From NCBI GenBank assembly GCA_903851135.1, contig CAINNK010000014.1, positions 37,574-101,573 of the forward strand: DNA of 64,000 nucleotides. The letters run 5' to 3'. Positions 9,299 through 9,697 of the stretch are shown piece by piece. A program made the translations under genes and the position numbers. Under the pieces are notes generated by a model. That model did not search any database. It had not been told where the DNA came from and saw only the letters and a list, made by a program, of their open reading frames with translations. Source of the stretch: an uncultured bacterium. GTDB lineage: Bacteria > Patescibacteriota > Minisyncoccia > Moranbacterales > GWC2-37-73. The stretch's first letter is position 1. Each line of letters starts with the position of its first letter.

Positions 9299-9390
9299 AG
9301 CCTCAAGTTCATTTTATGCATTTATAGTATCACCAAGCAGATGATTACTCAATATCTTGGCGTCTACCTTGCCAGCCTTGCTGCTGAGAT

Positions 9391-9413
9391 GGGTTCGAAT
9401 CCCTCTGTACCCA
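9391..9413 (+). repeat. inverted partial copy (23 nt) of tRNA-Lys 3' end (T-arm plus acceptor)
   Basis: GGGTTCGAATCCCTCTGTACCCA is identical to the last 23 nt of the minus-strand tRNA-Lys. No 5' acceptor partner (GGGTRYR) upstream, so not a tRNA. Confidence 0.6.
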
Positions 9414-9552
9414 ATGTTTACAGAGTGTCGCGTCACTCACTCGTCGACACTCGTTCATTCCTTGCCCGCGGTGGCGCCAAATGCTCATCCGCATTTGTCG
9501 GCGCTCTCCTGCGTTGCCTTTCTGCTGAAAGTCAACTTGTTTCGCTGCCACC

Positions 9553-9572
9553 GGTTCGAATCCCTCTGTACC
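9553..9572 (+). repeat. second inverted partial copy (20 nt) of tRNA-Lys 3' end
   Basis: GGTTCGAATCCCTCTGTACC; the preceding bases cannot form a T-stem. Confidence 0.6.
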
Positions 9573-9624
9573 TATACATTTAAAAAAAATAAAACACCAC
9601 GGGGGTGTTTTATTTTATTATTTG

Positions 9625-9697
9625 TGGGTACAGAGGGATTCGAACCCCCGACCATCGGCTTAAAAGGCCGTTGCTCTACCAACTGAGCTATGTACCC
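9625..9697 (-). tRNA. tRNA-Lys (anticodon UUU)
   Basis: Reverse complement GGGTACA TA GCTC AGTTGGTA GAGC A ACGGC CTTTTAA GCCGA TGGTC GGGGG TTCGAAT CCCTC TGTACCC A folds as a canonical cloverleaf. CCA is not encoded. Confidence 0.85.

What the first reader, a model, noticed from the sequence alone, without database searches (positions are those of the whole stretch)
9341..9697. tRNA-Lys preceded by two inverted partial copies of its own 3' end in a GC-rich 230-bp stretch
tRNA-Lys(UUU) lies on the minus strand at 9625-9697. On the plus strand, 9391-9413 (23 nt, identical to the tRNA T-loop plus 3' acceptor plus discriminator) and 9553-9572 (20 nt) repeat that 3' end in inverted orientation. Neither can be completed into a tRNA: no 5' acceptor partner and no pairing T-stem. 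Between them lies an unusually GC-rich segment (about 55% versus about 35% background) with a GAGTGTCG..CGACACTC hairpin and no credible ORF. tRNA 3' ends are classical integration targets, so this looks like a scar of integration or excision or tRNA-gene rearrangement. Alternatively it could be an unrecognised structured RNA that borrows tRNA-like 3' modules.
Basis: seen in the sequence. Interest (0 to 1): 0.5.

Follow-up and report, generated by a model that had tools for sequence, protein, structure and literature searches.

The report
Structured repeat element flanking tRNA genes
The two inverted tRNA-Lys fragments are the leading arms of one complete and one truncated copy of a conserved, folded, GC-rich element that sits just downstream of many different tRNA genes in Patescibacteria; I found it in no RNA-family library or paper I could search, and what it does is unknown.

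Summary
The 20-nt tRNA-Lys 3' end occurs three times in the window against 0 expected, and no hidden tRNA or tmRNA is present.

The fragments are not isolated scars. Read on the minus strand, the same strand as tRNA-Lys, the locus runs:
- tRNA-Lys, then its terminator;
- one complete unit (9405-9572);
- one truncated unit (9358-9413), fused to the promoter of the radical-SAM gene.

Sister genomes carry one to three such units at the same place. A core-motif scan found more than 120 metagenome contigs with the element. In 62 of 86 testable cases it lies within 400 nt downstream of a same-strand tRNA, covering 23 anticodon types.

Each unit has three parts:
- an arm that is the reverse complement of the local tRNA's T-loop, T-stem and acceptor 3' strand;
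- a three-way-junction core, with covariation 0.219 against 0.114 in shuffles and GU:AC of 40:6, which puts the fold on the tRNA strand;
- a direct copy of the tRNA 3' part, starting at the same T-loop position (about nt 58) in 23 of 43 cases.

A covariance model built without the window hits 9405-9572 at 87 bits (E = 4.6e-23). No Rfam 15 family matches.

Most likely this is a protein-less insertion module that targets tRNA T-loops. A functional RNA is a serious rival.

The parts
9625..9697 (-). tRNA-Lys(UUU), intact; CCA is not encoded
   Evidence: ARAGORN; Rfam RF00005, 76.5 bits
9586..9616 (.). Bidirectional intrinsic-terminator hairpin (13 bp) between the tRNA and unit 1. It is the centre of the 94-nt palindrome 9553-9646.
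   Evidence: Terminator scan on both strands; inverted repeat I1/I4
9405..9572 (-). Unit 1: a complete but divergent copy of the tRNA-flanking structured element
   Evidence: Covariance model R1, built from 78 metagenome units without the window, scores 87 bits, E = 4.6e-23, model positions 1-153. Its orthologue in L017, L029 and L030 scores 83-95 bits.
9553..9572 (-).
   Evidence: Exact 20-nt match. The same position is an antisense tRNA arm in all units.
9470..9552 (-). Core three-way junction. P1 is 9547-9552 with 9470-9475 (GGTGGC/GCCACC). P2 hairpin is 9513-9522 with 9527-9536, with loop UCAGCAG. P3 is 9479-9484 with 9491-9496.
   Evidence: Read from the sequence. P1 covaries with GGGCAG/CTGCCC in paralogues.
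9419..9452 (-). 3' part of unit 1. A 7-nt direct remnant of the tRNA 3' part (CTCTGTA on the minus strand, 9419-9425) pairs with the 5' arm at 9564-9570.
   Evidence: Sequence; alignment to the model; family architecture
9391..9413 (-).
   Evidence: 23/23 inverted repeat I2. The same arm sits next to the same promoter in L005, L011, L023 and L030.
9358..9390 (-). Linker of the truncated unit. It keeps the UCAGCAG..AAGGC..AGACGCC motifs of the unit's 5' third.
   Evidence: Alignment of unit 1 against unit 2 and relatives
9324..9352 (-). Promoter-like module: -35 TTGAGT (9347-9352), 17 nt, then -10 TACTAT (9324-9329). It drives the radical-SAM gene that starts at 9298.
   Evidence: Conserved as TTGAGT-17-TAnnAT in L005, L011, L017, L023 and L030, upstream of different genes. 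The simple scan did not list it, so it was identified by eye.
9720..9748 (-). 9-nt copy of the tRNA-Lys 5' end (9740-9748) followed by a terminator-like hairpin (9720-9739). It is a remnant of the 5' pseudo-tRNA pieces seen in tandem in L017 and L018.
   Evidence: Direct repeat D3; terminator scan; L017 and L018 sequences

Best explanation
On the minus strand the locus reads: tRNA-Lys, its terminator, one complete unit (9405-9572), then one truncated unit (9358-9413) fused to the radical-SAM promoter. Both units belong to a conserved structured element, about 150-190 nt long, that in Patescibacteria lies directly 3' of tRNA genes.

Each unit has three parts:
(i) an arm that is the reverse complement of the local tRNA's T-loop, T-stem 3' strand and part of the acceptor.
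(ii) a GC-rich three-way-junction core, strongly conserved in sequence and structure.
(iii) a direct copy of the tRNA 3' part, starting at about nt 58 in the T-loop and often running into the trailer.

Proposed mechanism (inferred): the unit is a protein-less insertion module. It entered the tRNA gene in the T-loop, between about nt 57 and 58. It brought a replacement tRNA 3' end plus terminator, which keeps the tRNA intact, and pushed the original 3' end downstream. Units then multiply, shrink and get truncated by recombination between their arms. The core folds as a single strand in the tRNA direction, either as RNA or as the lagging-strand template DNA. It is presumably what an unlinked recombinase or nuclease recognises.

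Shown here: family membership, structure, the strand that folds, specificity of both arms for the local tRNA, and copy-number polymorphism. Inferred: the insertion chemistry and the enzyme.
For: Membership: R1, built without the window, gives 87 bits and E = 4.6e-23 at 9405-9572(-).

Same layout with 1-3 units in sister genomes: L017, L018, L019, L023, L024, L029 and L030. L005 and L011 keep only the arm next to the promoter.

Family size and context:
- 62 of 86 testable occurrences have a same-strand tRNA within 400 nt upstream, across 23 anticodon types.

Structure:
- 84.9% of cells are paired, against 36-47% when partners are slid.
- Covariation score is 0.219 against 0.114 in shuffles (0 of 500 reach it).
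- Example pairs: 36:155 GC53/CG15; 98:149 CG55/AU21; 111:137 CG46/GC25.

Strand: GU/UG 40 against AC/CA 6 in the core helices.

Arms are specific to the local tRNA:
- Direct copy: median 15.5 nt against 6 nt for non-cognate tRNAs; at least 12 nt in 35 of 54 units against 1%.
- The direct copy starts at the same T-loop position in 23 of 43 cases and runs at least 2 nt into the trailer in 21 of 43. That points to a DNA-level duplication.
- Inverted arm: at least 15 nt in 11 of 54 units against 0.7%.
- In L024 the arm follows the local acceptor change, GGCACA instead of GGTACA.

The inserted block appears to bring its own terminator: L024 unit 1 is followed by TGTGCCCAca plus a second terminator, of the type that follows the tRNA directly in L029.
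Against: - No integrase, transposase, reverse transcriptase or any other recurrent protein lies within 3.5 kb of about 100 units. None lies near the window copy either.
- No copy was found in viral contigs. No free or excised form was seen.
- Near-identical cores lie beside different tRNA types while both arms match the local tRNA. A simple integrase model does not explain how the arms get re-matched.
- The direct copies are mostly intact rather than decaying. This could mean selection, that is, a function at the RNA level.
- The window's own unit has only a 7-nt direct copy and lacks the GATGRATG motif, so it is a divergent member.
- Strong terminators follow many units in the tRNA direction, as expected for a transcribed gene.
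Confidence: 0.5

Rival explanations
1. The units are genes for a stable non-coding RNA transcribed in the tRNA direction. Its ends form a helix that mimics the T-stem and acceptor of the neighbouring tRNA, and its 5' arm is antisense to that tRNA across the T-loop. It would act on or with the cognate tRNA, for example as a mimic, decoy, processing or repair factor. The DNA duplications would be only how new copies arise.
For: - The core has high sequence conservation in junctions plus covariation in stems.
- The fold is strand-specific, GU:AC 40:6.
- Many units have their own intrinsic terminator right after the tRNA-like 3' end.
- Direct copies stay identical to the local acceptor strand and discriminator.
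- The 5'-3' layout is guide (pairs across the 57|58 junction), then core, then tRNA nt 58-73. This is the same layout as engineered 3'-replacement trans-splicing ribozymes (my own knowledge).
- A mirror form exists in L067, L069 and L136: tRNA nt 1-47, then core, then the reverse complement of nt 44-53. It lies just upstream of an intact tRNA and behind a promoter-like TATAAT.
Against: - No promoter is conserved between the tRNA's terminator and the unit; the gap is only about 5-15 nt.
- The direct copy often includes trailer bases, which have no role in an RNA.
- The closing helix P0 shows no strand preference, GU 91 against AC 90.
- The window copy has lost most of its 3' tRNA part and unit 2 is truncated, yet both arms are still perfect.
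- No expression data could be consulted.
Confidence: 0.32
2. Passive scars. The fragments would be neutral att-site remnants left by repeated integration and excision of ordinary genomic islands at tRNA-Lys, and the GC-rich DNA a leftover of foreign sequence.
For: - The synteny break lies exactly at the fragment.
- Island-like cargo (RhuM, DUF2726, an IS3 transposase) is flanked by arm-plus-promoter modules in L017 and L030.
- Classical direct 3'-fragment arrays exist at other tRNAs, in L027, L036 and L039.
Against: - The fragments are inverted relative to the tRNA, unlike attL/attR.
- The 'leftover' is a conserved structure found beside 23 tRNA types in more than 120 contigs, with compensatory changes. 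Neutral debris would not show that.
- No integrase is present.
Confidence: 0.08
3. A local replication error: a fold-back (template-switch) duplication at the terminator hairpin copied the tRNA 3' end in inverted orientation. A later tandem duplication gave the second copy.
For: - The 94-nt palindrome 9553-9646 is centred on the terminator loop.
- In several loci the terminator stem is a long perfect palindrome that starts right at the tRNA end.
- There is weak similarity between unit 1 and the flank of unit 2 (p about 0.01-0.04).
Against: - The inverted repeat is usually interrupted. The last acceptor bases and the trailer are not mirrored, while the T-arm is.
- It does not explain the conserved core, nor the recurrence at unrelated tRNAs.
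Confidence: 0.05
4. A plus-strand tRNA-like gene: a tmRNA (one-piece or permuted), or a split, permuted or intron-containing tRNA whose 3' ends are the two fragments.
For: A canonical T-loop and acceptor 3' sequence on the plus strand, followed by a terminator after copy 2.
Against: - ARAGORN, which also detects permuted tmRNA, finds nothing.
- No tmRNA or tRNA-clan hit at E<=10.
- There is no T-stem 5' strand, no 5' acceptor strand and no tag reading frame.
- The GU:AC ratio shows the fold is on the other strand.
- L046 carries a normal tmRNA as well as a unit.
Confidence: 0.01

Closest known systems
Genetic elements integrated into the 3' part of tRNA genes with a T-loop crossover, and their integrase-less derivatives. 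Examples: CIMEs and tandem accretion in streptococcal ICEs; cargo-only tycheposon satellites. (From my own knowledge.)
   Same: The insertion keeps the tRNA intact and leaves a direct copy of the tRNA 3' part. That copy starts at a fixed T-loop position and extends a little past the gene end. Units form tandem arrays, and variable cargo lies next to them.
   Different: - The unit is only about 200 bp and encodes no protein.
- No integrase lies nearby.
- It has an extra inverted copy of the tRNA 3' part.
- It has a conserved strand-specific folded core.
- It is found at 23 tRNA types rather than one.
Recombination sites that work as folded single strands: integron attC sites, the CTX-phi attP hairpin used by XerCD, and IS200/IS605 ends with REP/RAYT. 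(From my own knowledge.)
   Same: Inverted repeats fold one strand into a duplex that imitates the target. Here the tRNA 3' part, the terminator and the inverted arm form one long hairpin. The fold lies on the strand that is the lagging-strand template. Structure is conserved by compensatory change. Arrays of units occur.
   Different: The core has long invariant sequence blocks, unlike attC. No RYYYAAC/GTTRRRY boxes were recognised by eye. No IntI, Xer-site or HUH transposase link was found. This resemblance was not tested with attC-specific tools.
Guide-plus-scaffold RNAs and trans-splicing ribozymes: the group I internal guide sequence, and IscB/TnpB omega RNAs. (From my own knowledge.)
   Same: The layout is an antisense guide of about 12-23 nt, a structured scaffold, and (as in 3'-replacement ribozymes) a copy of the target's 3' part. 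The guide spans the junction, as P10/P1 does.
   Different: No Rfam group I or HEARO match. The core of about 110-130 nt is too small for group I. There is no U.G pair at the junction and no adjacent nuclease gene. Activity is untested.
tRNA-like RNAs: the tmRNA tRNA-like domain, YrlA, and viral tRNA-like structures
   Same: The ends form a helix with T-stem and acceptor sequence, and a T-loop-derived CGAAC segment is conserved.
   Different: There is no closed T-arm in most units and no D-arm analogue. No Rfam clan hit. The 5' acceptor strand is often missing.

Membership tests
tRNA (Rfam RF00005) | Cloverleaf with acceptor, D, anticodon and T arms | tested here: met
   Met only for 9625-9697(-): ARAGORN Lys(UUU) and 76.5 bits.
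tRNA, including intron-containing, split or permuted forms, for the two fragments | A 5' acceptor strand and a T-stem 5' strand able to pair with the fragment | tested here: not met
   No ARAGORN or Rfam hit on the plus strand at E<=10. No GGGTACA or GRGGG partner upstream.
tmRNA (one-piece or two-piece) | tRNA-like domain with a closed T-arm and a G-U pair in the acceptor, a tag reading frame, and pseudoknots | tested here: not met
   ARAGORN tmRNA search negative. No tmRNA-clan hit at E<=10. L046 has a separate canonical tmRNA.
New family defined here (model R1) | Match to a covariance model of arm, CGAAC, P1, P2, P3 and the CAAGGA..GACGCG tail | tested here: met
   87 bits, E = 4.6e-23, full-length, with a model that did not include the window.
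New family defined here (model R1) | Position directly 3' of a same-strand tRNA, with a 5' arm antisense to that tRNA | tested here: met
   The unit starts 52 nt after tRNA-Lys. The arm is a 20/20 match. The family rule holds in 62 of 86 cases.
New family defined here (model R1) | 3' direct copy of the tRNA part from about nt 58 to the discriminator | tested here: inconclusive
   The window unit keeps only CTCTGTA (7 nt, 9419-9425 on the minus strand). Canonical members have a median of 15.5 nt.
Classical tRNA-integrated island (attL/attR) | Direct repeats of the tRNA 3' end flanking the inserted DNA | tested here: inconclusive
   The two flagged copies are inverted, so the feature is not met for them. 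At family level a direct copy is present in 35 of 54 units at 12 nt or more.
Classical tRNA-integrated island (attL/attR) | An integrase gene next to the tRNA | tested here: not met
   Pfam on neighbours of the window and L030 found none, only an IS3 transposase inside cargo. No recurrent neighbour family among about 100 loci.
Integron attC / CALIN | R''/L''-L'/R' boxes (RYYYAAC..GTTRRRY) with extrahelical bases; an IntI integrase | not tested
   No attC-specific tool was available. By eye, TTCGAAC is only a partial fit. No IntI-like gene was seen.
Group I intron | P3-P9 catalytic core, a G-binding P7, and a U.G pair at the 5' splice site | tested here: not met
   No Rfam intron hit at E<=10. 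The unit is shorter than known group I introns. All junction pairs are Watson-Crick.
IscB/TnpB omega RNA or IS110 bridge RNA | An adjacent nuclease or recombinase gene whose end overlaps the RNA | tested here: not met
   No such gene was found among neighbours. No HEARO or other Rfam hit.
MITE | Terminal inverted repeats plus a short, fixed-length target-site duplication; a related autonomous IS | tested here: inconclusive
   The ends are inverted repeats (P0). However, they copy the target, the duplication length is variable (8-57 nt), and no parent IS was found.

The most novel reading that the evidence does not exclude
The units encode natural guide-core-'3' exon' RNAs. The 5' arm would pair with the neighbouring tRNA across T-loop position 57|58, and the conserved core would catalyse or recruit replacement of the tRNA's 3' part (nt 58-73) by the copy the unit carries. 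That would be an RNA-level repair or exchange system for tRNA 3' ends, for example against acceptor-end or T-loop nucleases. A mirror form, tRNA nt 1-47 then core then guide, would serve 5' parts.
Probability: 0.07. Interest if true: 0.95.

Novelty: new variant of a known kind. Interest (0 to 1): 0.75.

Why it matters
Patescibacteria have tiny genomes with little spare DNA. Even so, they keep many copies of a roughly 170-nt folded element glued to tRNA genes of most specificities.

If the element is mobile, it is an unusually small, protein-less element aimed at tRNA T-loops that repairs its target as it inserts. It would also mark the hot spots where cargo genes are exchanged; in this window that is the radical-SAM cassette and its promoter.

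If it is a functional RNA, it is a new abundant RNA class tied to tRNA biology in a phylum where RNA-based solutions, such as group I introns, seem to replace proteins.

Either way it explains a class of 'tRNA fragment' oddities that annotation pipelines leave blank. Model R1 can now be used to annotate them.

Tried and rejected
- tmRNA, permuted tmRNA, and split, permuted or intron-containing tRNA on the plus strand. Rejected.
- Known RNA families. Rfam 15 at gathering threshold on the window and 12 loci, and at E<=10 on two unit regions, gave only tRNA, one tmRNA elsewhere, and hairpin-driven miRNA artefacts.
- Coding potential. The ORFs across the stretch have no homologues apart from the same DNA element. 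That spurious ORF proved useful as a handle to find L017.
- 'The GC-rich stretch is a diverged tandem duplicate of the promoter region.' Only weak support (p 0.01-0.04). The resemblance is better explained by both being units of one family.
- Phage origin. blastn against phage genomes gave only chance hits, and two viral-contig scans found nothing. Plasmids were not searched.
- Replication origin or terminus at the locus. GC skew is uniform across the window.
- Conserved protein partner. None found.
- Literature. Four searches found no description. The nearest paper, PMC13011429, concerns group I introns at anticodon position 35/36, a different feature.
- A second unit elsewhere in the window. 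None; tRNA-Val at 53956-54031 is followed by a plain terminator.

Full report
**1. Observation.**
ARAGORN and Rfam place tRNA-Lys(UUU) at 9625-9697 on the minus strand. The 20-mer GGTTCGAATCCCTCTGTACC occurs three times in the window: 9392-9411(+), 9553-9572(+), and within the tRNA at 9627-9646(-). None is expected by chance. Copy 1 extends to 23/23 nt. GC content is 0.52-0.57 over 9350-9549, against roughly 0.3-0.44 elsewhere. No further tRNA, tmRNA or other Rfam family is detected even at E<=10. The only extra hits are miRNA-like artefacts of the 94-nt palindrome 9553-9646, which is centred on a bidirectional terminator.

**2. Context.**
The flanking minus-strand gene (8489-9298) is a radical-SAM/SPL-like protein. 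Its closest relatives come from uncultured Patescibacteria and DPANN metagenomes. Contigs of the same species (L001-L004) show the identical arrangement.

Two sister species gave the first clue:
- L005/L006 keep a single antisense fragment (GGGTGCAGAGGGATTCGAAC) between a terminator and the same promoter (TTGAGT, 17 nt, TAnnAT). They have no tRNA and no GC-rich stretch nearby.
- L011 keeps a degenerate version.

The synteny break lies exactly at the fragment.

**3. An array, not a pair.**
The spurious 80-aa ORF across the GC-rich stretch has one homologue, P0122. That led to contig L017. There, tRNA-Lys and its terminator are followed by three tandem units of about 160 nt. Each unit starts with GGTACAGAGGGATTCGAAC. 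After them comes a partial unit fused to the promoter, this time driving RhuM-DUF2726-epimerase. A degenerate arm plus promoter then precedes the radical-SAM gene.

The middle L017 unit is the orthologue of window 9405-9572. The closing helix covaries between paralogues: GGTGGC/GCCACC against GGGCAG/CTGCCC.

A scan of species-representative genomes for two arms 135-165 nt apart found the same layout in Candidatus Moraniibacteriota MAGs (L023, L024) and in unnamed bins (L029, L030), with one to two full units. In L024 the tRNA acceptor is GGGCACA and the arm changes with it, to GGCACAGAGGG.

The window therefore holds an array reduced to one full unit plus the terminal, promoter-bearing partial unit.

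**4. A large family.**
It was not found in viral contigs.

Of 107 distinct occurrences, 86 have enough upstream sequence to test. Of those, 62 have a same-strand tRNA ending within 400 nt upstream, covering 23 anticodon types.

The recurrent layout is:
- tRNA;
- trailer and terminator;
- an arm that is the reverse complement of the T-loop, T-stem 3' strand and, in many units, part of the acceptor;
- CGAAC;
- P1 (NGGCAG..CUGCCN), which encloses a variable P2 hairpin and a conserved P3 (UGRAUGC..GCAUUCA);
- AGGRCAAGGAG;
- a variable P4 hairpin;
- GACGCG;
- a direct copy of the tRNA from about nt 58 to the discriminator and beyond, often with its own terminator.

Both arms are specific to the local tRNA:

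| Measure | Local (cognate) tRNA | Non-cognate tRNA |
|---|---|---|
| Direct copy, median length | 15.5 nt | 6 nt |
| Direct copy of 12 nt or more | 35 of 54 | 1% |
| Inverted arm, median length | 11.5 nt | 6 nt |
| Inverted arm of 15 nt or more | 11 of 54 | 0.7% |

The direct copy starts at the same T-loop position in 23 of 43 cases. It runs at least 2 nt into the trailer in 21 of 43.

**5. Structure and strand.**
On 78 units, 84.9% of cells in the proposed helices are paired, against 36-47% when partners are slid. The covariation score is 0.219 against 0.114 in shuffles (0 of 500 reach it). Clear double changes occur at 36:155, 45:94, 98:149, 111:137 and 29:232. Parts of P1 and P3 were fixed by the search pattern, so their invariance is uninformative; the covarying positions were free.

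The core helices contain 40 G-U/U-G pairs against 6 A-C/C-A pairs. So the fold exists on the tRNA-direction strand, which is the window's minus strand. The outer helix P0 shows no strand preference, 91 against 90.

No Rfam 15 family matches any unit.

**6. The window copy is a member.**
Covariance model R1, built from the 78 metagenome units only, hits window 9405-9572(-) full-length at 87 bits, E = 4.6e-23. It also hits every unit in the sister loci at 83-135 bits.

The window unit is divergent. Its P3 is AAAUGC/GCAUUU, and its direct 3' copy is reduced to CTCTGTA (9419-9425), which pairs with the arm at 9564-9570.

'Copy 1' is the arm of the truncated unit, whose remaining linker (9358-9390) keeps the UCAGCAG..AAGGC motifs. 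That linker abuts the promoter at 9324-9352.

**7. Mechanism.**
Several DNA-level features argue that units arise by insertion into the tRNA gene's T-loop, with the element supplying a replacement 3' end:
- The left boundary of the direct copy is fixed at about nt 58.
- The direct copy includes trailer bases.
- The inserted block brings its own terminator. L024 unit 1 is followed by TGTGCCCAca plus a second terminator, of the type that follows the tRNA directly in L029.
- Unit number varies between relatives.
- Cargo cassettes are bounded by arm-plus-promoter modules.

Together, the tRNA 3' part, the terminator and the inverted arm form a long hairpin that re-creates the target duplex on one strand. 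This recalls folded single-strand recombination sites such as attC, the CTX-phi attP and IS608 ends (my own knowledge).

Three facts count against a simple integrase model:
- No recombinase, or any other recurrent protein, is linked to the units.
- No excised form was seen.
- Similar cores sit beside different tRNAs with re-matched arms.

The RNA-gene rival is supported by the strong core conservation, the strand-specific fold, the units' own terminators and the intact direct copies. It is also supported by the layout of guide, core, then tRNA nt 58-73. A mirror arrangement in L067, L069 and L136 points the same way: tRNA nt 1-47, then core, then the reverse complement of nt 44-53, just upstream of an intact tRNA.

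I give the insertion-module model 0.5 and the functional-RNA model about 0.3. They are not exclusive. Passive scars, fold-back duplication and a plus-strand tRNA-like gene are largely excluded.

**8. Novelty.**
No match in Rfam 15. Four full-text searches found nothing relevant. The only related paper treats group I introns at anticodon position 35/36 in the same phylum.

I file this as a new variant of the known kind 'elements that insert into the 3' part of tRNA genes'. Its unusual features are its small size, the absence of any protein, the inverted arm and the conserved folded core. It would be categorically new if the RNA-level reading proves right.

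Noticed in passing
window 53845-53919 (+): A tRNA with an 8-nt anticodon loop (CTAGA-CTTTGCAA-TCTAG). ARAGORN calls it tRNA-??? with a 4-base anticodon (ttgc); Rfam tRNA scores 56 bits. It lies 37 nt upstream of tRNA-Val(GAC). It could be a quadruplet or frameshift-type tRNA, or an unusual Cys/Ala tRNA.
   Followed up: partly
window 9720-9748 (-); L017 2739-2800; L018 1502-2004: Partial copies of the 5' part of tRNA-Lys lie upstream of the intact gene. 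The window has 9 nt plus a terminator-like hairpin. L017 and L018 have one to three tandem pieces of nt 1 to about 53, ending at the border between T-stem and T-loop, each with a TCCGCCAACTGGCGGA hairpin inserted in the D/anticodon region.
   Followed up: partly
L018 1591-1848: A small GIY-YIG nuclease-domain gene (85 aa) sits between two 5' pseudo-tRNA-Lys pieces in one strain (L018) and is absent from the otherwise identical L017. It is a candidate mobile nuclease acting at this tRNA locus.
   Followed up: no
L059, L130, L154, L054 (TCCGCCAGYTGGCGGA); L023 6160-6185, L048, L133, L137, L142, L144 (GCCTGCCTACCGGCAGGCAGGC): Two short GC-rich perfect hairpins recur as insertions at different positions inside and beside units, and inside pseudo-tRNAs. 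This looks like REP-like miniature hairpin elements spreading in these genomes.
   Followed up: no
L067 ~4290-4520; L069; L136: A mirror arrangement of the same core. A 5' tRNA piece (nt 1-47 of Gly, Val or Cys tRNA) is fused to the core and followed by the reverse complement of tRNA nt 44-53. It lies just upstream of an intact copy of the same tRNA. L136 also has a second insertion of about 85 nt in the D-loop of the pseudo-copy.
   Followed up: partly
L027 5456-5673; L036 6096-6252; L039 6144-6315: In unrelated bacteria (a Lewinellaceae MAG, a Pseudomonadales MAG and a Nitriliruptoria MAG), a tRNA is followed by two or three further direct copies of its 3' end at periods of 50, 78 and 85 nt. 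These are classical direct-repeat arrays, different from the inverted arms studied here.
   Followed up: no
L005 2780-2900: A C-rich, G-poor stretch with TTATCCCCA/TTCTCCACA-like (DnaA-box-like) repeats replaces the body of tRNA-Lys in the sister species. Only CCCA, the trailer and the terminator of the tRNA remain.
   Followed up: no
window 9715-9738 and 9924-9947: A 24-nt repeat (AAAkTCAACCAAGnnAACTTGGCC, 88% identical) contains a CCAAG..CTTGG hairpin. One copy lies upstream of tRNA-Lys and one inside the ORF at 9881-10444.
   Followed up: no
window 5232-5329 (-): A weak R1 match (13.6 bits, E = 0.064) inside ORF 4839-5396 (the window's counterpart of the gene called RRF, ribosome recycling factor, in L005). 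It contains GGTTCGAACTGGCAG and is probably chance.
   Followed up: no
window 8489-9298 (-) and relatives P0001-P0120: The radical-SAM/SPL-like protein has homologues at 65-75% identity in both Patescibacteria and DPANN archaea. It sits in different gene neighbourhoods even among close relatives, which suggests a frequently transferred cassette.
   Followed up: partly
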